A stretch of 64,000 nt of DNA from Spirochaetota bacterium (GCA_026415295.1 JAOAHJ010000028.1:2964-66963); one strand, 5' to 3'; positions 14,127-50,519 are shown, numbered from the stretch's first letter. Program-made: numbers and translations. The notes: generated by a model not told the origin, from the letters alone.

Positions 14127-16562
14127 ATGAATAAAAAAATATCAAATTTTATATATATTTTATTAACAATTATCACAATTATTTTTTTATTCATTTTTTC
14201 CTCTTGTAGTAATCCTGTTTCAAATACACAAACATCCTCTGCAGGTTCGAACTCAAACAATAATAGTGGTAATAACAGTGGAAATGGAAACAATGGGGGA
14301 GCTACACCATTAAAGGTTGAAAAACCTGTTTTTTCTTTAGAAGGTGGAAGTTTTGATGAATATATAACATTAGAAATCACTTGTAGTACTAATGGTTCAC
14401 AGATATGGTATACTTTAGATGGATCTAACCCAGAACCTCAAAGTTCAAACTTATATACAACTCCAATTTTTATTGATAAAACAACAACTATAAAAGCAAT
14501 TGCAACTAAAGAAAATTATCAGAATTCTGATATAGTTGAAGCTATTTACACTATAAATAAAGTTCCCCTTCCAAAATTTGATGTTAATAGCGGAGTTTAT
14601 AATAATGATATAAAAGTTAGAATCTTTTGCGATTTAAATGATGTTGAAATTTTTTATACATTGGACGGAACTGATCCAGAACCATATGTATCTGATAAAT
14701 ACAATGGAGAACAGATTTTGGTTAACACTTCATTAAAAATTAAAGCAATAGCCATTAAAGATGGTTATATAAATTCTAATATTTCTGAAGTTTCATATGA
14801 TTTAAAAGTTTCAAATCCAGAAGTTAGCTTACAACCTGGTATTTATTATGAAGATAAAACTCTTACAATATCATGTCAAACAAGTAAAGCAAATATATGG
14901 TATACAACAGATGGAACAGACCCAAAGACTTCACCATCTCGAATATTATATAACAATTCTCAGATTAACATAAATAGTTGTATGAACTTTAGAATTTATG
15001 CTGAAAAAACAGGATATATTGATTCTAACGAATTAAATGTTTCTTATACATTACAATGTTTGCCTCCTTATATTGACTTAGAAAGTGGTACTTATTTTAA
15101 TAATCAAACTATAACACTTAATTGCCCAACTCCAGGTGTAATTCTATACTACACTCTAGATGGAAGTAACCCAATACCTGGATCATCTCCTCAATATAAT
15201 TCACCAATAAACATTCCAGGTAGTACACCTTCAAGTAACGGTAATTATAAATTAAGAGTATTAGCAGTAAAAGCAGGGTATGAAAATTCTATTGTTTCTT
15301 CTGCCAATTATTTATTAAAAGTTGCAAAACCAACTTTTAACAAAAATCCTGGTAAATATTTTGAAGAAACTTCTGTCTCTATTTCTACAATAACTGTTGG
15401 AGCTTCTATTCTTTACTCTACAAATTTAAGTGATCCATATATTAATTATAATGCACCAATTAATTTATCGATCCCAACAAATCTTAAAGTAAAAGCTAAA
15501 AAAACCGGTTATGCTGATTCAGATCTAACTCAAGGTTTTTATAACATTTTATTTAATAAAATATATACAAATAATTCTAGCAATGATATTGAACATTTGT
15601 CTTTAGTTTCTGATTTTAGGAAATTTTTACATGTTTCTTATTATCGTGGAGGTTCTGCTAAAGATCTATATTATGTTAATAATAATCCTTCTTGGAAATC
15701 TGCAAGTCCTATTTTAACTACAGGAGATGTAGGAAATTATTCTTCTATAGCAATCGATTCATCCGATTATGTTCATATTGTATTTTATGATGCAACAAAT
15801 AAGAATTTAAATTATATCACAAATAGATCAGGTTCATGGATAAATTCGCAAATTGATACAAATGGAGATGTAGGACTTTATTGTGTTATTAAATATGATT
15901 ATTCAAATGATTATATTCATGTTGCTTATTATGATTCAACAAATGGTTATTTAAAATATGCTAAAAAGCATGTAGAAAATGAAGAATGGCAAATAGAAAC
16001 AGTAGATACTAATGGTGATTTTAATTCTTATATTTCTTTAGATCTCGATCAAAATGGTTTTCCTCATATATCTTATTATGATGCAATAACAGTTTCTCTT
16101 AAATATGCTTATTTTGATGGAACAGAATGGATTAAAGAAACAATTGATTCTACTGGAAATGTTGGCAAATACTCATCTATTGCTATAGATAACAATAATA
16201 AAGTATATATTACATATTATCAATACAAATCAAAATCAACTGGGGCCTTAAAACTTGCAACAAACAAAAATGGATCATGGCAAATTTCATATATTGAAAA
16301 TATTCAAGGATTTAATGATGGATTGTTTAATAAACTAGTCATTGATTCAAATAACAATTTACATATAATATATTGTAGATATTTTAATTCTACAAATTCT
16401 TATATATTAAAATATGCCATAATAAACAATGAAGGAAATATAGAGATATTTACAACATCAAATAATAATCTTAACTCTGCAATCAATTTTAGCAAATTAA
16501 ATAATAAAATTTATATTCTAGGAATAATTGGAAATATGCTCTATATTTATGAGCAAAATTAA
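14127..16562 (+). CDS. Large surface lipoprotein: 5 tandem chitobiase/hexosaminidase-C-like (FN3-like) repeats plus C-terminal YYD-repeat beta-propeller-like domain
   Basis: Signal peptide with lipobox (FSSC), S/N/G linker, five ~80-aa repeats with core IWYTLDGSNPxP...TIKAIAxKxGYxNS, then ~7 repeats of VGxYSSIAIDxxxxxHIxYYDxxNxxLKYA. Confidence 0.55.
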   Translation: MNKKISNFIYILLTIITIIFLFIFSSCSNPVSNTQTSSAGSNSNNNSGNNSGNGNNGGATPLKVEKPVFSLEGGSFDEYITLEITCSTNGSQIWYTLDGSNPEPQSSNLYTTPIFIDKTTTIKAIATKENYQNSDIVEAIYTINKVPLPKFDVNSGVYNNDIKVRIFCDLNDVEIFYTLDGTDPEPYVSDKYNGEQILVNTSLKIKAIAIKDGYINSNISEVSYDLKVSNPEVSLQPGIYYEDKTLTISCQTSKANIWYTTDGTDPKTSPSRILYNNSQININSCMNFRIYAEKTGYIDSNELNVSYTLQCLPPYIDLESGTYFNNQTITLNCPTPGVILYYTLDGSNPIPGSSPQYNSPINIPGSTPSSNGNYKLRVLAVKAGYENSIVSSANYLLKVAKPTFNKNPGKYFEETSVSISTITVGASILYSTNLSDPYINYNAPINLSIPTNLKVKAKKTGYADSDLTQGFYNILFNKIYTNNSSNDIEHLSLVSDFRKFLHVSYYRGGSAKDLYYVNNNPSWKSASPILTTGDVGNYSSIAIDSSDYVHIVFYDATNKNLNYITNRSGSWINSQIDTNGDVGLYCVIKYDYSNDYIHVAYYDSTNGYLKYAKKHVENEEWQIETVDTNGDFNSYISLDLDQNGFPHISYYDAITVSLKYAYFDGTEWIKETIDSTGNVGKYSSIAIDNNNKVYITYYQYKSKSTGALKLATNKNGSWQISYIENIQGFNDGLFNKLVIDSNNNLHIIYCRYFNSTNSYILKYAIINNEGNIEIFTTSNNNLNSAINFSKLNNKIYILGIIGNMLYIYEQN

Positions 16563-19737: not shown

Positions 19738-20385
19738 ATGAGAAAAAATAAACTAATTAAAAAGTTTTCTAATCTTTTTTTAATTTTATTAATAATTTTA
19801 ATTTTTTTCTCGTTAAATTGCTTTGCAAAATTCAATATTGGATTTACTTCAAATTTTATCATTCCACCTCCATTTACAAATATAAGTCCTTCTTTTATTA
19901 ATTCTTTACTTGTTGATGGTGGCTTTAAATTATGTTATATAATGAATGATTTTTATATTTTAGGTTTTTATTTAGATTTATCAACAGGAATTATTTCAAT
20001 TCTTAAAACATTTGAAACAATAGGTTGGATTGTTTTTTTTCCAATTTCAATTGGTCTAAAAATTCCATTTCCCGAGATACCTCCAACTATAGGTATTATT
20101 AATCTTGGCATTGTAACTGGTATAAATATTGTAAACAAACCTAACTTCAAACTTGATTTTATATCCAAATTTGGCTTTGGATCTATTGAAATTCAAGCAG
20201 AAAAAAATATTCAGGCATCTTTCTACTCAATTAAACCTGAATTAAATTTAAAATATCCTTTAGCAAAATTTTTTGGATTCGGTTTATCAAATTCAAATGC
20301 TTTTCTTTTTTTAAAAGAACCAGTAAACAATAAAAAAATTATTTATTATTCATCTTTAGGTTTATATATTTATTTTGAATTTTAA
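19738..20385 (+). CDS. Small secreted protein, possible outer-membrane beta-barrel
   Basis: Signal peptide; Gly/aromatic-rich alternating pattern; C-terminus ...LGLYIYFEF ends in Phe (OMP beta-signal-like). Confidence 0.3.
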   Translation: MRKNKLIKKFSNLFLILLIILIFFSLNCFAKFNIGFTSNFIIPPPFTNISPSFINSLLVDGGFKLCYIMNDFYILGFYLDLSTGIISILKTFETIGWIVFFPISIGLKIPFPEIPPTIGIINLGIVTGINIVNKPNFKLDFISKFGFGSIEIQAEKNIQASFYSIKPELNLKYPLAKFFGFGLSNSNAFLFLKEPVNNKKIIYYSSLGLYIYFEF

Positions 20386-21127: not shown

Positions 21128-21706
21128 TTACCAGTTTTCACATAAAATTTCAAAGAAGCTTTGAGGATGAGCACAAGCTGGGCAACTTTGTGGTGCTTCT
21201 TCTCCTTCATAAATAAAACCACAATTATTACATTTCCACCAAACTTTTTTATCCTTTTTAAAGACACTTCTATTTTCTATATTTTTAAGTAAAGCTCTAT
21301 ATCTTTTTTCATGTTGCTTCTCAACAATTGCAATGTTCCTAAAAACTTGAGCAATCTCTGGAAAACCTTCCTTTTCAGCTTCATCAGCAAAATTTTGATA
21401 CATAGTTGTCCATTCATAGTTCTCTCCATTAGCAGCAGCTAATAAATTTTCAGGAGTTGTTCCAATTTTCCCTGCTGGATAAGCTGCATTAATTTCAACT
21501 TCACCTCCCTCTAAAAACTTAAAAAATCTCTTAGCATGTTCTTTTTCATTTAAAGCTGTTTCTTCAAAAATCATTGCAATTTGAATATATCCCTCTTTTC
21601 TTGCAACTGATGCAAAATAATCATATCTATTCCTTGCTTGTGATTCACCTGCAAAAGCAGCCAATAAATTTTTTTCAGTTTTTGTTCCTTTAACAGATTT
21701 AGCCAT
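21128..21706 (-). CDS. rbr: Rubrerythrin
   Basis: Diiron ferritin-like N-domain (ExxH motifs) plus C-terminal rubredoxin-like CNNCG...CPACAHP domain, 192 aa. Confidence 0.85.
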
Positions 21707-21886
21707 AAAACCTCCTTTTTTAAAAATATTAAGTTAAAAGTAAGTTTTATATTATATTATATAATAAATATACTTAATTTTTTTATAACATTTCATAAAA
21801 ATAGTTAGAAATTTATTTAACATAAAAATATTTATAGTAAAAAATTATATAAACAATTTCAAAACAATTTTTTTATAAAAATAAAA

Positions 21887-22141
21887 TTACAAATTAATTT
21901 CAATCAATTTTGCTTTAACACCTTCAAGTAAATTTAATTTTCTTTCAAGCTCTAAATGTTTTTCTTTTTCTCCAACAAGCTCAAGGAAAATAGTCCCATT
22001 ATCGGAACATTTATCTAGAACCTCATCATGTATACCAAGTCTAATCTTTATTAAACAACCCCAACCTGTTAAAATTTCCTGAACTTTAATAGCATTATTT
22101 TTCCTTTTATCAATAATTATAATCATAAATCTTTTTTCCAT
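21887..22141 (-). CDS. TM1266-family small ACT-like protein (annotated elsewhere as putative iron-only hydrogenase system regulator)
   Basis: 84 aa; MEKRFMIIIIDKR...VQEILTGWGCLIKIRLGI...IFLELVG...KLNLLEGVKAKLIEI closely follows my recollection of the TM1266 family pattern. No hydrogenase genes nearby. Confidence 0.45.
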   Translation of the reverse strand: MEKRFMIIIIDKRKNNAIKVQEILTGWGCLIKIRLGIHDEVLDKCSDNGTIFLELVGEKEKHLELERKLNLLEGVKAKLIEINL

Positions 22142-22201
22142 AATATTTCCTGCTTTATGATTTATTTAACTTAAAAGTCTATTAAAAAAATAAACGAAAA
22201 T

Positions 22202-22582
22202 TTAAACTTTCCACAACCCATGTAAATTACAGAATTCTCTAACATATAATATATCTGATCTATTAACATTAAAAATAGCTTCAGGTTTATCTCCAGGGTT
22301 TAATTCTTTTCTTAAAATATAACCATCTTTTGTAACAACTTCAATAAATTGGATCCAGTGAGAATCTTCCATTGGATGAGGAACAGAGCCAACTTTAACT
22401 AATATTTTATTGCTAGTATCCTCAATTACAGGTAAGTGTTTTTCTCCAGCACCTTCTCTATTTTTCTCATCCATTAAAGTCATCTCTTGCCCACAACAAA
22501 CCAAATCTCCTTCACCTTCAATAAAAACTTCAACTACATTACCACAAATTTTGCATTTATAAATTCCCATTTTAGTTGCCAT
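22202..22582 (-). CDS. dfx: Desulfoferrodoxin (2Fe superoxide reductase)
   Basis: N-terminal desulforedoxin CKICGN...CCG plus centre-II His/Cys ligands (HLPVIE, HPMEDSHW, CNLHG); 126 aa. Confidence 0.85.
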   Translation of the reverse strand: MATKMGIYKCKICGNVVEVFIEGEGDLVCCGQEMTLMDEKNREGAGEKHLPVIEDTSNKILVKVGSVPHPMEDSHWIQFIEVVTKDGYILRKELNPGDKPEAIFNVNRSDILYVREFCNLHGLWKV

Positions 22583-22725
22583 AAACCCTCCTTAATTTAA
22601 TTCTAGATTATTTAAATTTTTTAAAATTTTAAATATTAAATAATTTCATTTATAATATTACAAATTAAAATAAAATATTGAATTAAGTTAAATATTATCT
22701 AAGTAACTATTAATGTTCTTAAATT

Positions 22726-23247
22726 TTAATCTATATAACCTTTATCAAAAATATTCTGTGGATATTCTCTTTTACCCATTTCTTTATCAAGATAAAGTAA
22801 ACCACTATTTGAATTAGAAATCATTTTTAACTTTTGCAAAATAGTATCCACTGACAATTCTTCTTCAACCTGTTCTTTAACATACCACTTTAAGAAATCC
22901 AAAGTAGCGTAATCTTTTTCATCTTCTGAAATTTTTACTAATTCCCATATTCTTGAAGTTATATATTTTTCATGTTTTAAAGCTTTTTCAAAAGCATCTA
23001 AAATTGATTCAAATTTCGTTTCAGGTTTTTTAATTTCTAAAAGTTCAGGTTTTTTCCCTCTTTCGACAAGATAATTAAAAAACTTCATTGCATGCATAAT
23101 CTCTTCTTGAACTTGAGCTTTCATCCAATGTGCAAACCCTTGTAAATTTATAGATTCAAAATAAGATACAATAGAAAGGTAAAGATATGCTGAATAAAAC
23201 TCCTCATTTACCTGTCTATTTAACTCATTAAAAATTCTATCAGTCAT
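22726..23247 (-). CDS. ftn: Non-haem ferritin
   Basis: Ferritin-like diiron ligands (EEFYSAYLYL, QEEIMHA), 173 aa. Confidence 0.75.
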   Translation of the reverse strand: MTDRIFNELNRQVNEEFYSAYLYLSIVSYFESINLQGFAHWMKAQVQEEIMHAMKFFNYLVERGKKPELLEIKKPETKFESILDAFEKALKHEKYITSRIWELVKISEDEKDYATLDFLKWYVKEQVEEELSVDTILQKLKMISNSNSGLLYLDKEMGKREYPQNIFDKGYID

Positions 23248-23386
23248 AATTTTCTCCTTAATTACTTTTTAAATTAAACTATAAAAAATATCTATAAATT
23301 TTATAATAATTTTAACATTTCTTTTTCTATTAATTTTTTATTTTACTAATTGTTATACAATTATAAAATTCAATAATATAAAAAAT

Positions 23387-24547
23387 TTAAAGTTTATTAC
23401 TAATATCATCTTTAATTTTATTAAGATCTTCATCTGAAGGAACATATTGTATTTTATATGATCCTATAATATTAAGACCCATTTCATTAATAATTTTTTC
23501 AATATCTTTTATACTTTCACCACCCCAACCATAAGAACCAAAAACAAATATTTTTCTATTTTTAGGATTTAACCCTTTAAAATATGTTATAAATGCTGAT
23601 ACTGTAGGCAACATGTTTTTATTTAAAGTTGGGGAACCTATAAAAATATATTCAGAATCCAATATTTCAGTAATAACATCAGAGATATGATTTTCTTGTA
23701 ATGGCATATATTTAAAAGATATTTTTTTATCATCTAATACACTTTTAATTGCATCCGCTATCATTTTTGTTGAATTCCACATTGTATCATAAACTATAAC
23801 AGCCTTTCTTTCAGTTAAGTTTTTGCTCCACTTATCATAATTCGAAATAAATTCTTTAATAAACTTTTTAATTATTAACCCATGACTCGGACAGATAATT
23901 TCAATTTCTAACTTTTGAGCTTCAGAAAGCTCCTTTTGAACTTGATCACCATATGGTAAAACTATATTGGCATAATATTTTTTTGCCTCATAAAAAAGAA
24001 TATCTCTATCATATTCTTCATCAAATCTCTCAAAAGAAGCAATGTGCTGACCAAAGCCATCATTAGAAAATAAGATTTTTTCTTCTTGGCAATATGTAAC
24101 CATATTATCTGGCCAATGAACCATTGGGGTTAATAGAAAAACTAGATTTCTTTTCCCAATATTTAATTTATCTCCACTTTTAACCTCTATATAATTAAAT
24201 TCTTTTTTATAATGAGCTTTCAGTCCTTTTAAACCATTAGGAGAAGTATAAATTTTTAAATTAGGATTTAATTCTAATATTTTAGGTAGTGAACCTGAAT
24301 GATCCATTTCAACATGATTAGAGATATAGTAATCAATTTTTGAAATAGGAACGATTTTTTCAATTCTTTCTTTGAATTCATCAAATAAATAATGCTTAAC
24401 ATTATCAATTAAAACAATCTTTTCATCTAATATTAAATAAGAATTATAACTTGAACCTCTTTGAGTCAAATAACCATGAAAATTTCTTAAATTCCAATCA
24501 ACAGCACCAACCCAATAAATATCATCTTTAATTTTAATAGCATCCAT
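23387..24547 (-). CDS. fprA: Flavodiiron protein (rubredoxin:oxygen/NO oxidoreductase, FprA/ROO type)
   Basis: Metallo-beta-lactamase-like diiron motif HVEMDHSG followed by flavodoxin-like domain; 386 aa. Confidence 0.8.
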   Translation of the reverse strand: MDAIKIKDDIYWVGAVDWNLRNFHGYLTQRGSSYNSYLILDEKIVLIDNVKHYLFDEFKERIEKIVPISKIDYYISNHVEMDHSGSLPKILELNPNLKIYTSPNGLKGLKAHYKKEFNYIEVKSGDKLNIGKRNLVFLLTPMVHWPDNMVTYCQEEKILFSNDGFGQHIASFERFDEEYDRDILFYEAKKYYANIVLPYGDQVQKELSEAQKLEIEIICPSHGLIIKKFIKEFISNYDKWSKNLTERKAVIVYDTMWNSTKMIADAIKSVLDDKKISFKYMPLQENHISDVITEILDSEYIFIGSPTLNKNMLPTVSAFITYFKGLNPKNRKIFVFGSYGWGGESIKDIEKIINEMGLNIIGSYKIQYVPSDEDLNKIKDDISNKL

Positions 24548-24709
24548 AAAATCTCCGTAATTTTAATTTTTTTAAATATAAAATATATAAAAGAATAATA
24601 ATTTTTATACAATATTAAATTAAATACAAATTTGTAATTTTTACAAAATAAATTTAAAAAAAATTAATTAAATTTTAATTAAACCCCACCCACCACCCTT
24701 CAAAAAAAA

Positions 24710-24847
24710 TTACTCCTTCTCAAATGCATCTTTTTCGGCACCACAAACTGGACAAACCCAATCATCAGGCAACTTTTCAAAAGGAATACTATCATTTTCT
24801 GAAGGATCATAAATATAACCACACACTGTACAAACCCATCTTTCCAT
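24710..24847 (-). CDS. rd: Rubredoxin (45 aa) - not in supplied ORF track
   Basis: Manual translation of minus strand: [45 protein letters not shown]; two CxxCG knuckles and conserved W/Y/F/P positions of rubredoxins. Confidence 0.8.
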
Positions 24848-24956
24848 CTAATCACCTCATATATTTTTTATTTATAAATATCACTATTAATATAATAATT
24901 AAATTGAAAATTTTTTCAATAACTTTTTTTATGAAAAATTACTAAACATTAAAATC

Positions 24957-25373
24957 TTAATTTATACAATTTTTACAAACCCCTTCAAAAATAACTATAT
25001 TACTAATTACCTTATTACCATCTATAAAATCTATTTTAAATTTATCAACAACTAACTTATCTTCAATATCATATAATTTATCACATTTTATACATTTAAA
25101 ATGTAAATGGGGAATATAATTTAAATCATATACTGTTTTATCTCCATTAATAAATGAAATAGCTAAACCTTTTTCTATAAATATTTTCAAGGTATTATAA
25201 ATCGTAGTTTTTGATAAAGTCGGGATCTGTTTTTCAAGTTCATTAAAAATTTCTTCAATTGTAGGATGATTTCTTTTTAAAATAAAATATTTTAATATAG
25301 CTAATCTTTGTACTGAAGGTTTAATTTCGTATTTCTGCAATAAACTATACTCAAAAATTGCCTGTGTATCCAT
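24957..25373 (-). CDS. perR: Fur-family transcriptional regulator, probably peroxide-responsive (PerR-like)
   Basis: Winged-helix N-domain, HLHFKCIKC and C-terminal CKNC metal sites; located at head of oxidative-stress cluster. Confidence 0.65.
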   Translation of the reverse strand: MDTQAIFEYSLLQKYEIKPSVQRLAILKYFILKRNHPTIEEIFNELEKQIPTLSKTTIYNTLKIFIEKGLAISFINGDKTVYDLNYIPHLHFKCIKCDKLYDIEDKLVVDKFKIDFIDGNKVISNIVIFEGVCKNCIN

Positions 25374-46546: not shown

Positions 46547-49045
46547 CTAATAAATTTTTTCTATAATATCTTCAAAACTTAAATCTGTAAAACTTATAGA
46601 TTGTATACCAAATGATATAACAAACTTAAAATAATAACTATTTTTTAATGAATCATAAAAATAATTACCACTTAAATTTAAATATCCAAAAAAATCATGA
46701 AAATCTCTTTTAATTCCAATTGAAATATAATTTAATTTAAAATAAGAAATAATTCTATCATTAATATTAAAAAAATTAAATGATCTAAATAAATCAATCA
46801 TCAGATCAATTAAATTATTATAAGTATAAAATTTTTCATTAGAAGAGTTTATTGAAACATTCATATTAAATTTATCTTGAAAATTAACATTTAATACAAA
46901 AAGATTTGTAAATTTTGTATCTAGTTTGTCAATTAAATTTTGATAAAATCCTACTGTATTAGAAATATTTACTTTTAAATTATAAAAATTAAAATTATAT
47001 AAATTTATTCTTAATAAATAATTATTATAAATAAAAAGATTATAAAAAATTGAATATTCTCCATTATAAGAAAGATTAATCAATCTAGATGGATTAAAAA
47101 TCAAACTATATTTTATATTAGACACCCTTTTTAAATTAAAGGAAAATAAATTTTTTGTTTCACTATCATATAAATTTATAAAATTTGAAATATTTATAAT
47201 AATTAAATTATACAATAAATTTATATTTAAAGAATTATTAATTATTGAACTTTTCCATCCATTTTGATCTTCAATATAAAACATTTTTATATAGTTAGTA
47301 GTATAACTTGAGTTTAATTTAATAAAATCTAAATTTATTAAAAAATTAGATGATAAATTAAAATTATAATAACTATTTTTACTATTTATAGTGTTTGTTT
47401 TAAAATCAATCGAATCATTTAAACTTAAAGAATTTAAAATCGTTAAATTAATATTAAATAATTTTAGAATATCTAATTTAAAGTTAAATGGGATATTTAA
47501 ACTAGTCTGCTTGTAACCAGATATCTTTTCTTCATTGGAATTATAAATTTCACTATATGAAGTTACCCCAGAAATATTCGTTGAAAAATAAAAAAAGCTG
47601 AGATTAAAATTTATTAGATTCATATTTATATTAAAATTATATAAATTAAAAAAATATTTAAAATATTTAAGGTATCCTGGAGTATAAATATATAATGGAT
47701 CTTTAATATAAGAAGATAAACCCAATTTTCCTGAATAAGAAACATTAATAAATCTGGTATTTAATAAAATATTTAAAGATTCTTCAAAGTTTGAAGTATA
47801 AGAAGGAAAAATAGAAGGGTAATATGTTCTTGCAAAATCTCCTATTTCAAATTTTAGCTTTCTTGTTCTTGTTAAAAAATCATAAGAAAAATATGGGTCT
47901 CCATAGTATTCAATATTCATATTTATATTTAGAATATTAAATATAGGATATGACAAATTTATCTTTCCTCCATATCTAAATATTCTTAATGGTTTGTCAA
48001 TATTTAATAAATTATTATATGGAGTCCACAAATCATATTCAGAGTTATAAAAAAGATATTGGGAATATGCAATTCCAAACAAAACTTTTATATTATTTGT
48101 ATTATAGTAAAATCCACTAAAGATCCCCAATTTTTCATAAATATCTAGAAAAAAACTAAGATCATTCTCAACAATATAAGTATTATAAAAGGTAAACCCC
48201 TCTCTTTTTTGATAGACGAAACCAAATTCTCCTGGGTAACCTATTCCAAAATCGAAATTTATGAAAATAGGTAACCAAAAAATAGGTGAAGAACCAACGT
48301 AAACTTTGTTATCAAAACTTAAAATAAGATTTTCTGAATAGAAAAAATTACTGCTTAATATATAATAGTGCATATTGATATTGTTGCATGTAGAAATTTT
48401 CAAATTTTCCCCACTAAAAGTTTTTCCAACTAGTTTATTTACGACCTCCCCTATTATCCATATATTGTCTAACTTCCCTCTAACATTGTAAAAAAAACCA
48501 GTTAAAGTTTTTAAATTAAAAAAAACTCTTGAAGCGTAATATATTGATTTATCATCTATAAAAACTACGTTTCCTTCTGCTATTAATTGCTGATTTTTTA
48601 AATCAAAAGTTAATTTATCTGCTGAAATTACTTTATTCTCAAAATATATATAAATATTGCCTAGCAATTTTACAATTGTAATATTTTCTTTTTCATGGTT
48701 TTCTGTAAAAAGATAATCAGCTTTTTTAATAATTAATAAATATTTTTCCTCAATGAAAATAGATTCTATTTCAAGGTTAAATACTTTAAATAAATCTAAC
48801 CTTAAAGATTTTATGTCTTTAGATATATCTAGCCCGTACATTTTAGCAATGCTTAAAATGTCTTCAGCATCACTATATAATATAAAAGCAATCAATTGTT
48901 GTTCAGTAAAATAATTGAGAATTGAAGTTGCTTCTTGAGCATATAAAAAAGATGAAAATAAAATAAAACACAAAAAAAAATCAATAATAAAAAAAGTAAT
49001 GATTTGAATAGTAATTAAAATTTTTTTATTTTTTAATTTTAACAT
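46547..49045 (-). CDS. Large outer-membrane protein with OstA/LptD-like N-terminal domain and Y/F/N-rich beta-rich body
   Basis: Signal peptide; N-terminal segment LLGNIYIYFENKVISADKLTFDLKNQQLIAEGNVVFIDD...FNLKTLTG resembles the OstA_N beta-jellyroll repeat; remainder has alternating aromatic pattern. Confidence 0.4.
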   Translation of the reverse strand: MLKLKNKKILITIQIITFFIIDFFLCFILFSSFLYAQEATSILNYFTEQQLIAFILYSDAEDILSIAKMYGLDISKDIKSLRLDLFKVFNLEIESIFIEEKYLLIIKKADYLFTENHEKENITIVKLLGNIYIYFENKVISADKLTFDLKNQQLIAEGNVVFIDDKSIYYASRVFFNLKTLTGFFYNVRGKLDNIWIIGEVVNKLVGKTFSGENLKISTCNNINMHYYILSSNFFYSENLILSFDNKVYVGSSPIFWLPIFINFDFGIGYPGEFGFVYQKREGFTFYNTYIVENDLSFFLDIYEKLGIFSGFYYNTNNIKVLFGIAYSQYLFYNSEYDLWTPYNNLLNIDKPLRIFRYGGKINLSYPIFNILNINMNIEYYGDPYFSYDFLTRTRKLKFEIGDFARTYYPSIFPSYTSNFEESLNILLNTRFINVSYSGKLGLSSYIKDPLYIYTPGYLKYFKYFFNLYNFNINMNLINFNLSFFYFSTNISGVTSYSEIYNSNEEKISGYKQTSLNIPFNFKLDILKLFNINLTILNSLSLNDSIDFKTNTINSKNSYYNFNLSSNFLINLDFIKLNSSYTTNYIKMFYIEDQNGWKSSIINNSLNINLLYNLIIINISNFINLYDSETKNLFSFNLKRVSNIKYSLIFNPSRLINLSYNGEYSIFYNLFIYNNYLLRINLYNFNFYNLKVNISNTVGFYQNLIDKLDTKFTNLFVLNVNFQDKFNMNVSINSSNEKFYTYNNLIDLMIDLFRSFNFFNINDRIISYFKLNYISIGIKRDFHDFFGYLNLSGNYFYDSLKNSYYFKFVISFGIQSISFTDLSFEDIIEKIY

Positions 49046-49046
49046 A

Positions 49047-49655
49047 CTAATTTTTAATTAAAACTATAATTAAAGCTATTAAAGAAACTATTAAAGAAAG
49101 AGTTGATAAATAAAATGGAATATTGTTATTTTCTAATTTACTTACTCTTTTATCAAGTTCAGCTAACTTTTCTTTAATTGTCTCAATTTCTAGTCTAAAT
49201 TCTTGAATCAATTCTTTAATTAACTTTGCATCCTCTTCTGTTATCATAGATCTCATCATAATAGTATTAATTATCTCATTTATTTCATCCATACTATTTG
49301 GTTTAGAAGTTGTTTTAATATCATAATTATTTTTTATCCATATGATTAAATTATATATAATCAATGCCATTTCATACCTTGTAATATTCCTATCTCCTTT
49401 GAAAGTACCATCTTTATATCCTTGAACAATATTTAATGAAAAAAGATATACTAAAGCTTGATAAGCCCAATGATCAGGAGGCACATCAGAAAAGAAACTT
49501 AGAGATGAACCTGAACTCTGACTAGTTTGATTTGTAGAACTTTGACTTGATTGTGCAAAAGAAGATATAGAAAAAAATAAAATAAAAACAATAACAAATA
49601 TAATATAATAAAAAAGATTTATCTTAACTTCATTAAATATTATCTTGTTACTCAT
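49047..49655 (-). CDS. SLH-domain / coiled-coil / C-terminal membrane-anchor protein (Thermotoga Ompalpha-like architecture)
   Basis: Signal peptide, Ser/Gln linker, SLH motif FSDVPPDHWAYQAL...GYKDGTFKGDRNITRYEMA, heptad-repeat segment, C-terminal TM LSTLSLIVSLIALIIVLI. Stop is 1 nt before the downstream OMP gene start. Confidence 0.55.
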   Translation of the reverse strand: MSNKIIFNEVKINLFYYIIFVIVFILFFSISSFAQSSQSSTNQTSQSSGSSLSFFSDVPPDHWAYQALVYLFSLNIVQGYKDGTFKGDRNITRYEMALIIYNLIIWIKNNYDIKTTSKPNSMDEINEIINTIMMRSMITEEDAKLIKELIQEFRLEIETIKEKLAELDKRVSKLENNNIPFYLSTLSLIVSLIALIIVLIKN

Positions 49656-49831: not shown

Positions 49832-50386
49832 ATGAAAAAAAATCTTTTTTATTGTATTTTTTTTATTTTATTTCTATTAATTTCATCTTCTTTTGTAGCT
49901 TTAGCTCAAACTAACACAGAAAAATTTTTTGACTCCTATTACCAAAATGGACAAATGAGTATTTATGCCTCTGTAGGATGGTGGTGGGGACTAACTTTTT
50001 CTGGAGAAATTGAAATTATTTTAGGAGAATGGAATATTGCTGATTTTATGCCAATTGATTTTGGAATCTCAGGAAAAACTATTTTTGAAACTTGGAGTTG
50101 GTTTGGTTATTCTGAAACATATATAGGCTTAGCTCCACTTTTTATGATGCATACTGGAATAGCAGATATTGGAATTGACTATTACATTGGCCTTGGAGTA
50201 GGATTTGCTATATATAAAAGCTCTGATAACTATTATTATTTTTCTACCAGAAAACCATTTGAAATTGGCATTGCTACAACAAGTGGTGTTATTTATTATT
50301 TATCTAAAAATTTTGGATTAATATTAGAGTACTCTTATATTGGATGGGTTTCAATATGGGGTATTGGAATACAACTAAAATTATAA
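49832..50386 (+). CDS. Small secreted Gly/Trp/Tyr-rich protein (possible small beta-barrel OMP)
   Basis: Signal peptide ...ALAQ; alternating aromatic/Gly pattern. Confidence 0.3.
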   Translation: MKKNLFYCIFFILFLLISSSFVALAQTNTEKFFDSYYQNGQMSIYASVGWWWGLTFSGEIEIILGEWNIADFMPIDFGISGKTIFETWSWFGYSETYIGLAPLFMMHTGIADIGIDYYIGLGVGFAIYKSSDNYYYFSTRKPFEIGIATTSGVIYYLSKNFGLILEYSYIGWVSIWGIGIQLKL

Positions 50387-50394
50387 AACAAAAA

Positions 50395-50428
50395 TTAAAA
50401 AAAGGATTACTAAAGTAATCCTTTTTTT
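50395..50428. terminator. Bidirectional rho-independent terminator AGGATTAC-TAAA-GTAATCCT flanked by A-run and T-run
   Basis: Between convergent 49832..50386 (+) and uvrA (-). Confidence 0.55.
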
Positions 50429-50519
50429 ATAGTATTTATTTTATTAAAAACTAAGAACTTTTATTATTGAAAATCTAAATAATAATAGTTTAAGATTAGA
50501 ATGATTAGAAATAGGTAAA

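What the first reader, a model, noticed from the sequence alone, without database searches (positions are those of the whole stretch)
49047..49655. Ompalpha-like SLH / coiled-coil / C-terminal-anchor protein: evidence for a toga-like or SLH-tethered outer membrane
The domain order is signal peptide, S-layer-homology domain, heptad coiled coil, then a C-terminal hydrophobic anchor. That is the architecture described for Thermotoga maritima Ompalpha, which spans the periplasm to tether the outer sheath (toga). It also recalls the OmpM-type SLH tethering of Negativicutes and other deep-branching diderms. At 202 aa this would be a much shorter rod than Thermotoga's. Taken with the TM1266-family gene, this hints at a relative of toga-bearing lineages or another atypical diderm.
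Basis: partly seen in the sequence, partly recalled or inferred. Interest (0 to 1): 0.6.

Follow-up and report, generated by a model that had tools for sequence, protein, structure and literature searches.

The report
Short SLH wall-to-membrane tether in a spirochaete
A thermophilic, Exilispira-like spirochaete encodes a small protein built like the cell-wall-to-outer-membrane tethers of Thermotoga and other deep-branching bacteria, next to a likely LptD outer-membrane protein; this tether type has not been reported for spirochaetes, but which membrane it anchors in is not shown.

Summary
Window 49047-49655 (-) is a 202-aa ORF with these parts:
- a cleavable signal peptide
- one SLH domain (Pfam 42.6 bits)
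- eight conserved heptads of coiled coil
- a 19-residue C-terminal hydrophobic helix

The SLH domain and stalk are homologous to the periplasmic part of OmpM (Veillonella, E=3.7e-23) and SlpA. All OmpM ligand-contact residues are invariant. A helix replaces the beta-barrel, as in Thermotoga Ompalpha, but the rod is about 8 nm rather than about 45 nm.

The phylogenetic guess is wrong. Ffh on the same contig places the genome in Spirochaetota, closest to Exilispira. The "TM1266-family" gene is a CPF_0552-family protein.

Most likely this is a trimeric wall-to-membrane tether of the split-OmpM/Ompalpha type. Outer-membrane anchoring is inferred, and an inner-membrane stop-transfer anchor is a serious rival. 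I could not search for csaB or wall chemistry.

It is a new variant of a known kind, in a phylum reported to use only OmpA-type tethers.

The parts
49047..49655 (-). Gene for the 202-aa SLH / coiled-coil / C-terminal-helix protein. NCBI names it 'MAG: S-layer homology domain-containing protein [Spirochaetes bacterium]'.
   Evidence: ORF. 100% identical NCBI protein. Pfam SLH. Orthologue alignments.
49554..49655 (-). Signal peptide, residues 1-34, with predicted cleavage at SFA|QS.
   Evidence: Hydropathy peak at residues 5-38. Small residues at -3/-1 (xYA|Q, xFG|D, xYG|E) recur across the orthologues. There is no lipobox Cys. Cleavage is inferred, not tested.
49497..49553 (-). Ser/Thr/Gln-rich low-complexity linker, residues 35-53. 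It is present only in the closest orthologues.
   Evidence: Alignments. pLDDT is below 50 here.
49326..49496 (-). Single SLH domain, residues 54-110, with invariant W63, Y65, G87 and T92-R93-Y94-E95.
   Evidence: PF00395, 42.6 bits. The profile aligns to V. parvula OmpM1 so that W34, Y36, G58 and TRYE63-66 match these residues (residue roles from PMC10628300). Invariant columns. Foldseek top hit is 8bz2, the OmpM1 SLH domain, TM 0.71.
49122..49292 (-). Coiled-coil stalk, residues 122-178: eight heptads, about 8 nm if fully helical.
   Evidence: Continuous a/d register, shuffle p=0.0006, conserved family-wide. Residues 140-174 align to the OmpM1 stalk. AlphaFold2 places helices at 122-135 and 140-176.
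49056..49112 (-). C-terminal hydrophobic helix, residues 182-200, followed by 0-2 residues.
   Evidence: Hydropathy 2.4-2.7 in all members, with conserved Y182, S184 and S191. The tail is K/KK/KN in the window's subclade. The Exilispira subclade has no charged tail.
46547..49045 (-). Downstream 832-aa gene, probably co-transcribed: a divergent LptD-like outer-membrane protein. It has a signal peptide, a helical module at residues 42-88, a beta-jellyroll at about 94-250, and a large beta-rich C-terminal part.

Best explanation
The gene encodes an envelope tether of the split-OmpM / Ompalpha type in an Exilispira-related thermophilic spirochaete.

Proposed mechanism:
1. The protein is exported by Sec and its signal peptide is cleaved.
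2. It assembles as a parallel trimer through its eight-heptad coiled coil.
3. Trimerisation brings three single SLH domains together into the three-groove module seen in OmpM and SlpA.
4. This module binds a peptidoglycan-associated ligand non-covalently. The ligand would be either a pyruvylated secondary polymer or modified peptidoglycan.
5. The ~8-nm stalk ends in three C-terminal hydrophobic helices that hold the trimer in a membrane.
6. That membrane is most probably the outer membrane, possibly next to or in contact with the LptD-like barrel encoded 1 nt downstream. The protein would then fix the wall-to-outer-membrane distance much as Lpp does in E. coli.

Shown here: the domain anatomy, homology to the OmpM SLH domain and stalk, conservation of the ligand-contact residues, the host phylum, and the conserved gene neighbourhood.

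Inferred: signal-peptide cleavage, the trimeric state, the nature of the ligand, which membrane holds the helix, and any contact with the LptD-like protein.
For: - Pfam SLH hit at 42.6 bits.
- A family profile hits V. parvula OmpM1 (8bym, E=3.7e-23) in two co-linear segments, SLH and stalk. It also hits D. radiodurans SlpA (7zgx, E=1.9e-15).
- Foldseek places the model on the OmpM1 SLH crystal structure, TM 0.71.
- OmpM1 residues W34, G58 and R64 (in the TRYE motif), plus the tyrosines Y36 and Y65, map to invariant W63, G87, R93, Y65 and Y94 (PMC10628300).
- The heptad pattern is conserved and Ile-rich at both a and d positions, as expected for trimers.
- In genome scans, the next-best relatives after the family itself are N-termini of proteins from OmpM- and porin-bearing groups: Negativicutes, Cyanobacteria, Armatimonadota and Deinococcales. 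They align over residues 55-177.
- The architecture equals the published Ompalpha definition, including a ~20-residue hydrophobic C-terminus (PMC3387000, PMC9388160).
- A predicted outer-membrane barrel gene follows directly, as in the split systems described for Thermotogae, Bipolaricaulota and Fraserbacteria (bioRxiv 10.1101/2021.05.31.446380).
- An unrelated 48.5%-GC lineage (L112) has a 181-aa SLH/coiled-coil/hydrophobic-tail protein followed by a 428-aa secreted beta-rich protein. Short versions of the split system therefore exist elsewhere.
- More than half of the family has no positively charged C-terminal tail, so the classical stop-transfer signature is missing.
Against: - No experiment or structure places the helix in the outer membrane.
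- A 19-residue, very hydrophobic segment on a Sec substrate would by default stop transfer in the inner membrane. Four of the seven aligned members do end in Lys.
- The neighbouring barrel is LptD-like, not porin-like.
- The whole uvrA-SLH-lptD-like-smc-ffh block is syntenic in the clade. Adjacency alone therefore does not prove a functional link.
- Spirochaetes carry periplasmic flagella between the wall and the outer membrane. This rests on general knowledge, not on a test here. An 8-nm tether would leave no room for them where it is present.
- No csaB gene lies in the window, and the rest of the genome could not be searched.
- Both AlphaFold2 models are of low confidence.
Confidence: 0.5

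Rival explanations
1. An inner-membrane type I protein. After signal-peptide cleavage, the C-terminal helix acts as a stop-transfer anchor in the cytoplasmic membrane. The coiled coil then holds the SLH trimer about 8-10 nm above that membrane, where it grips the wall from below. This would make it an inner-membrane-to-peptidoglycan spacer rather than an outer-membrane tether.
For: - This is the default Sec behaviour for a 19-residue segment of mean hydropathy 2.4-2.7.
- The window protein and its nearest relatives end in K, KK or KN, which fits the positive-inside rule.
- It avoids a clash with periplasmic flagella between the wall and the outer membrane (general knowledge of spirochaete anatomy).
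- Synteny of the whole block weakens the argument from the LptD-like neighbour.
Against: - The Exilispira subclade and P0007, P0011 and P0017 have no basic residue after the helix; their tails are ALFL, ALVF, ALLL, AIFN and ALFS.
- The stalk is homologous to a stalk whose C-terminal end sits at the outer membrane in OmpM and SlpA.
- Ompalpha is a precedent for the same architecture reaching the outer layer (PMC3387000, PMC10160955).
Confidence: 0.33
2. A dedicated accessory subunit of the LptD-like translocon, not a general tether. The C-terminal helix would dock on or in the LptD-like barrel, or on its conserved N-terminal helical module. This would anchor the lipopolysaccharide exporter to the wall, and might replace the LptE or LptM partners that are hard to find outside Proteobacteria.
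For: - The SLH gene is followed by the LptD-like gene in every locus recovered, across SLH identities down to 34%. In the loci where an intact downstream ORF was found the gap is 1-250 nt; L088 has an insertion element between the two genes and L090 lacks an intact ORF call.
- In the window, stop and start are 1 nt apart with no terminator between them.
- A more distant LptD-like protein outside the clade (P0159, locus L085) lacks the SLH neighbour.
Against: - No precedent is known to me.
- Neighbouring housekeeping genes (uvrA, smc) are equally conserved in position.
- The LptD assignment rests on a low-confidence model (pLDDT 43.5) and marginal sequence scores.
- The presence of LPS synthesis in this lineage was not tested.
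Confidence: 0.12
3. A surface-layer or sheath anchor, or a generic coiled-coil protein unrelated to membrane tethering. JGI labels one orthologue a phasin.
For: SLH domains also anchor S-layer proteins and enzymes in monoderm bacteria. One source's annotation reads 'polyhydroxyalkanoate synthesis regulator phasin'.
Against: - The protein has no passenger domain at all. After SLH and stalk there is only a membrane helix.
- The phasin label has no Pfam support and the protein is secreted.
- The host is a diderm in which the wall is periplasmic.
Confidence: 0.05

Closest known systems
Ompalpha (OmpA1, TM0477) of Thermotoga maritima and its paralogues
   Same: The domain order is the same: signal peptide, one N-terminal SLH domain, coiled coil, and a ~20-residue hydrophobic C-terminus with no beta-barrel. 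In both cases a predicted outer-membrane barrel gene lies next to it (PMC3387000, PMC9388160, PMC10160955).
   Different: - The rod is 57 residues (~8 nm) against 316 residues (~45-50 nm).
- The host is a spirochaete, not Thermotogota.
- The neighbouring barrel is LptD-like (832 aa, with a jellyroll), not a porin-like Ompbeta.
OmpM of Negativicutes (V. parvula OmpM1, PDB 8bym/8bys/8bz2) and SlpA of Deinococcus radiodurans (7zgx)
   Same: The SLH domain and the stalk segment are homologous (E=3.7e-23 and 1.9e-15). The same ligand-contact residues are present, including both tyrosines highlighted for Negativicutes OmpM. There is one SLH domain per chain, which implies a trimer (PMC10628300).
   Different: - There is no C-terminal beta-barrel. 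The chain ends in a single hydrophobic helix at residue 202.
- About 28 extra residues, including helix 122-135, sit between the SLH domain and the conserved stalk segment.
- There is no porin function.
Split OmpM-like systems of Bipolaricaulota and Fraserbacteria, and the pair found here in locus L112
   Same: A short SLH/coiled-coil/hydrophobic-tail protein (181 aa in L112) is followed by a gene for a secreted beta-rich protein (bioRxiv 10.1101/2021.05.31.446380).
   Different: - In L112 the partner is porin-sized (428 aa).
- Those lineages belong to Terrabacteria, where SLH tethers are the rule.
- Only the SLH part aligns to the spirochaete family (hhalign E=3.3e-24 over 74 columns).
Braun's lipoprotein Lpp of E. 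coli (functional analogue only)
   Same: A small trimeric coiled coil of about 56 residues (~8 nm) links the wall to a membrane and sets their spacing. This rests on general knowledge.
   Different: Lpp is lipid-anchored at its N-terminus and covalently linked to peptidoglycan at its C-terminus. Here the wall contact is a non-covalent N-terminal SLH domain and the membrane anchor is a C-terminal helix. The two are not homologous.

Membership tests
SLH domain proteins (PF00395) | A match to the SLH profile above the gathering score | tested here: met
   42.6 bits against a cut-off of 20.8, residues 55-97. All orthologues carry PF00395.
Ompalpha (Thermotogae type) | A single N-terminal SLH domain after a signal peptide | tested here: met
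   There is only one SLH stretch in the protein, and only one SLH ORF in the window.
Ompalpha (Thermotogae type) | A long coiled-coil rod (316 aa, ~45-50 nm) that spaces the toga from the cell body | tested here: not met
   A coiled coil is present but is only 57 residues, or eight heptads. Family length is 172-207 aa against ~400 aa for Ompalpha (PMC3387000).
Ompalpha (Thermotogae type) | A C-terminus of ~20 hydrophobic residues and no beta-barrel | tested here: met
   Residues 182-200, hydropathy 2.69, conserved in all members.
Ompalpha (Thermotogae type) | An adjacent gene for an outer-membrane beta-barrel (Ompbeta) | tested here: inconclusive
   A predicted outer-membrane protein is always next door, but it resembles LptD rather than a porin, and the barrel part of its model has low confidence.
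Ompalpha (Thermotogae type) | Sequence orthology to T. maritima Ompalpha, or placement within Thermotogota | tested here: not met
   The host is in Spirochaetota. A direct alignment with Ompalpha could not be made because no Ompalpha sequence was available in the tools.
Ompalpha (Thermotogae type) | Location in the outer layer with the SLH end at the wall | not testable with these tools
   This needs fractionation, immuno-EM or cryo-ET.
OmpM / SlpA superfamily | An N-terminal SLH domain with the W, G and TRxE ligand motifs, followed by a homologous coiled-coil stalk | tested here: met
   The profile hits 8bym at E=3.7e-23 with SLH and stalk segments co-linear. W63, G87 and T92-E95 are invariant.
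OmpM / SlpA superfamily | A C-terminal outer-membrane beta-barrel in the same polypeptide | tested here: not met
   The chain ends at residue 202, directly after a single helix.
OmpM / SlpA superfamily | Trimeric assembly | not testable with these tools
   Inferred from one SLH domain per chain and Ile-rich a/d positions.
SLH-dependent wall attachment | Presence of the ligand pathway: the CsaB pyruvyl transferase or polyamine-modified peptidoglycan | not tested
   No PS_pyruv_trans hit appears among the window ORFs scanned.
LptD (for the downstream 832-aa protein) | An N-terminal OstA/LptA-type beta-jellyroll | tested here: met
LptD (for the downstream 832-aa protein) | A large C-terminal barrel and a match to the LptD profile (PF04453) | tested here: inconclusive

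The most novel reading that the evidence does not exclude
An SLH-based wall-to-outer-membrane tether, so far treated as a hallmark of diderm Terrabacteria, operates in a deep thermophilic branch of Spirochaetota. It is physically coupled to LptD, so LptD would play the role of 'Ompbeta' and the lipopolysaccharide exporter would be anchored to the wall. This would be either a relic of the ancestral OmpM-type system at the Terrabacteria/Gracilicutes boundary, or an old transfer that rewired a spirochaete envelope.
Probability: 0.2. Interest if true: 0.72.

Novelty: new variant of a known kind. Interest (0 to 1): 0.5.

Why it matters
A published survey of outer-membrane tethers (bioRxiv 10.1101/2021.05.31.446380) reports a two-way split. 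SLH/OmpM systems occur in Terrabacteria. Pal, OmpA and Lpp occur in Gracilicutes. Spirochaetes have OmpA only and are discussed as a transition state between the two groups.

A conserved OmpM-derived, Ompalpha-like protein in an Exilispira-related spirochaete clade is an exception at exactly that boundary. It gives a concrete gene to test in a culturable relative, Exilispira thermophila.

It also shows that the split form (SLH-stalk-helix plus a separate barrel) can be as short as Lpp. The pairing with an LptD-like gene is a combination I found no description of in the searches of the held paper library.

The practical impact is limited until the protein's localisation and its wall ligand are known.

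Tried and rejected
- **Exact-sequence look-up** of the window protein in the contig index found nothing. Context came from orthologues instead.
- **The representative-library search** was swamped by multi-SLH proteins. Only four further single-stretch, full-length relatives were useful.
It did not return the window's own genome, so family distribution among genomes is a lower bound.
- **The afdb50 fold library** was unavailable.
- **Pfam and NCBIfam** gave no significant family for the 832-aa protein. hhalign against a single E. coli LptD sequence was not significant (E=0.16). The LptD reading therefore rests on fold comparison of a weak model.
- **The promoter scan** is uninformative at 23% GC: 43 sites found against 40.7 expected.
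- **Two spirochaete contigs** with 51-53% Ffh identity (L168, L169) have a different gene order around ffh. They cannot show whether those lineages lack the SLH gene.
- **My loose regex screen** for short SLH proteins with hydrophobic tails gave mostly spurious ORFs. Only L112 held up.

Rejected readings:
- A relative of Thermotogota.
- A lipoprotein; there is no lipobox Cys.
- A phasin; there is no support and the protein is secreted.
- A two-anchor inner-membrane hairpin with an uncleaved N-terminus. Orthologues such as P0011 have only ~5 residues between the hydrophobic core and the SLH domain, which cannot be reconciled with an 8-nm stalk.

Full report

Window 49047-49655 on the minus strand is a complete 202-aa ORF. 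AAGAGGT lies 6 nt upstream of its ATG. The window has about 23% G+C throughout.

The protein matches the Pfam SLH profile at residues 55-97 (42.6 bits, cut-off 20.8, E=5.7e-11). It also matches the N-terminal part of NCBI's cyanobacterial SLH-porin model, por_somb (64.6 bits).

Hydropathy shows two strongly hydrophobic segments, one at the N-terminus and one at the extreme C-terminus (residues 182-200, mean 2.69). The N-terminal segment ends in SFA|Q. Orthologues have xYA|Q, xFG|D or xYG|E at the same place and no lipobox cysteine. I read this as a cleavable signal peptide, which is an inference.

Residues 122-178 carry one unbroken heptad register. 76% of a/d positions are L/I/V/M/F, and only 0.06% of shuffles of the segment reach that score. 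The same a/d columns are hydrophobic in all seven aligned relatives.

An AlphaFold2 model from four sequences is of low confidence (pLDDT 59). It places helices at 4-33, 63-73, 93-110, 122-135, 140-176 and 182-201.

**2. What is it related to?**

The sequence is 100% identical to an NCBI protein named 'MAG: S-layer homology domain-containing protein [Spirochaetes bacterium]'.

Full-length relatives are few:
- four in the 5.8-billion-protein search
- four more cluster representatives in the 1.84-billion-protein library
- several in genome and metagenome contigs

All are 172-207 aa and all have the same architecture.

A profile of seven members finds these matches in the Protein Data Bank:
- Veillonella parvula OmpM1 first (8bym, E=3.7e-23), in two co-linear pieces: the SLH domain, and the stalk segment at query residues 140-174
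- D. radiodurans SlpA next (7zgx, E=1.9e-15)
- monoderm S-layer SLH domains after that

Foldseek puts the model on the OmpM1 SLH crystal structure (8bz2, TM 0.71, 36% identity).

The register maps the residues that the OmpM paper assigns to ligand contact onto the target as follows:
- W34 onto W63
- G58 onto G87
- T63-R64-Y65-E66 onto T92-R93-Y94-E95
- the Negativicutes-typical Y36 onto Y65

All of these are invariant in the family (PMC10628300). The protein is thus homologous to the periplasmic part of OmpM/SlpA-type tethers. It lacks their beta-barrel and ends in a single helix. That is the architecture published for Thermotoga Ompalpha: SLH, a 316-aa coiled coil, and ~20 hydrophobic C-terminal residues (PMC3387000, PMC9388160). 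The rod here is 57 residues, about 8 nm if fully helical. That is close to the OmpM stalk or to Lpp, not to the 45-50-nm Ompalpha rod.

**3. Whose genome is this?**

Ffh, encoded 7 kb away in the same window, is closest to unnamed metagenome proteins (57-61% identity, after one 90% hit). Its closest named hits are Exilispira sp. (58-59%), followed by 'Spirochaetes bacterium' and Treponema (51-53%).

In one genome per species, the only full-length homologue of the SLH protein is in an Exilispira MAG (L005). That MAG's UvrA C-terminus is 63% identical to the window's. NCBI places Exilispira in Spirochaetota.

The gene sits on the same contig as these markers, and the locus recurs in independent assemblies, so it is not a binning artefact.

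The 'TM1266-family gene' is the 84-aa ORF at 21887-22141 (minus strand). It scores 99.3 bits for the CPF_0552 family (cut-off 85) and only 28.3 bits for TIGR03959 hyd_TM1266 (cut-off 60.8). It says nothing about Thermotoga ancestry.

The rest of the window fits a motile anaerobe. It encodes a methyl-accepting chemotaxis protein, rubrerythrin, desulfoferrodoxin and a flavodiiron protein.

**4. Neighbourhood**

The next gene downstream (46547-49045, 832 aa) starts 1 nt after the SLH stop codon, and no terminator-like site lies between them.

It has no significant Pfam or NCBIfam family. The only marginal hits it and its relatives collect are Lpt beta-jellyroll models: LptA (E=0.12 and 0.17), LptD_N in 3 of 6 members, and LptC in 1.

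Its AlphaFold2 model is poor overall (pLDDT 43.5) but reaches 70-85 over residues ~45-250. The remainder is beta-rich.

Fold comparison gives:
- Foldseek: full-length LptD fills the first 15 places (E=1.8e-14 to 4.6e-10), and LptA matches at TM 0.60.

An hhalign comparison with E. coli LptD is not significant (E=0.16). It does align residues 127-308 with LptD 66-249, pairing the invariant Cys220 with C173, and PIFWLP...KREGF with PIFYSPY...KRRSGF.

I read the protein as a divergent LptD-like outer-membrane protein, at about 70% confidence.

The order uvrA, SLH gene, LptD-like gene, smc holds in every related locus: L001/L087, L084, L086, L005/L093, L089, L090, L092 and L170. In L088 an insertion element sits between the two genes. 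The wider block up to ffh is also syntenic, so adjacency alone is weak evidence for a functional link. A more distant LptD-like protein from outside the clade has no SLH neighbour.

**5. A parallel case**

Locus L112 comes from a 48.5%-GC metagenome contig. It encodes a 181-aa protein with an SLH domain (39.8 bits), a coiled coil and a hydrophobic C-terminus. A 428-aa secreted beta-rich protein follows it. Short SLH-stalk-helix proteins next to a barrel-like gene therefore exist outside Spirochaetota. This matches the split OmpM-like systems reported for relatives of Thermotogae (bioRxiv 10.1101/2021.05.31.446380).

**6. Mechanism**

The best-supported reading is a trimeric tether:
- There is one SLH domain per chain. 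OmpM and SlpA build their three-groove wall-binding module from three chains (PMC10628300, PMC9388160).
- The stalk has Ile-rich a and d positions.
- The ligand residues are intact.

The open step is the membrane.

For the outer membrane:
- The stalk is homologous to a stalk that ends at the outer membrane.
- Ompalpha provides a precedent.
- The downstream gene encodes an outer-membrane protein.
- More than half of the family has no basic residue after the helix.

For the inner membrane:
- Such a hydrophobic Sec-substrate segment would normally stop transfer there.
- The window's own subclade ends in Lys.
- Periplasmic flagella would clash with a short wall-to-outer-membrane tether.

My estimates are:
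- about 0.5 for an outer-membrane tether
- about 0.33 for an inner-membrane anchor
- about 0.12 for a dedicated LptD accessory role, which overlaps with the first
- a small remainder for other readings

The ligand is unknown. No csaB gene lies in the window, and the rest of the genome was out of reach.

**7. Novelty and verdict**

The domain annotation is already public, and the architecture belongs to a known kind. What is new:
- The host. The survey of tethering systems lists OmpA as the only system in Spirochaetes and calls SLH/CsaB practically absent from Gracilicutes.
- The Lpp-like length of the rod.
- The constant pairing with an LptD-like gene.

Two full-text searches found no paper describing an SLH tether in spirochaetes.

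I class it as a new variant of a known kind, of moderate interest (0.5). Its value depends on localisation and ligand experiments that are feasible in Exilispira thermophila.

Noticed in passing
window 46547-49045 (-), residues 42-88 of the 832-aa protein: The LptD-like protein has a conserved all-helical module ahead of its jellyroll (e.g. EDILSIAKMYGLDISKDIKSLRLDLFKVF). It looks like a helix-extended-helix (SAP/Rho_N-type) motif. It is also present in the Exilispira-type orthologues and is unusual for LptD.
   Followed up: partly
window 49832-50386 (+): A divergently transcribed 184-aa protein has a signal peptide and a Gly/aromatic-rich, beta-like sequence, with no family hit. It may be a small outer-membrane barrel. 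A 75%-identical orthologue sits at the same place in L001, but there is none in Exilispira locus L005. A 15-bp-stem bidirectional terminator-like hairpin at 50396-50429 separates it from uvrA.
   Followed up: partly
window 19738-20385 (+): A 215-aa secreted beta-rich protein has no family hit and ends in YIYFEF. That terminal aromatic pattern is typical of outer-membrane barrel proteins.
   Followed up: no
window 21128-25373 (-): An oxidative-stress cluster of an anaerobe: rubrerythrin, an 84-aa CPF_0552/TM1266-like ACT-type protein, desulfoferrodoxin, ferritin, a flavodiiron (FprA-type) protein and Fur.
   Followed up: partly
window 14127-16562 (+): An 811-aa protein with five CHB_HEX_C_1 repeats and four Fn3_assoc repeats, probably a secreted or surface carbohydrate-binding protein.
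   Followed up: no
L088 3599-7000: In one Exilispira-type metagenome contig, a transposase-like ORF lies between the SLH gene and the remnant of the LptD-like gene. Only the C-terminal ~235 residues of that gene are matched by tblastn.
   Followed up: partly
L112 1882-3940 (+): A 48.5%-GC contig of unknown lineage carries a 181-aa SLH/coiled-coil/hydrophobic-tail protein followed by a 428-aa secreted beta-rich protein ending in DYSW. This is a short Ompalpha/Ompbeta-like pair outside Spirochaetota, sitting downstream of signal peptidase I and RNase HII genes.
   Followed up: partly
L169 1-1957 (-): A spirochaete contig with 51% Ffh identity (Spirochaetes bacterium GWD1_27_9 type) encodes a 1442-aa protein with a C-terminal OmpA domain. 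This is the wall-binding type expected for the phylum. It has the usual ffh-rpsP-rimM-trmD-rplS order, which the window lacks.
   Followed up: no
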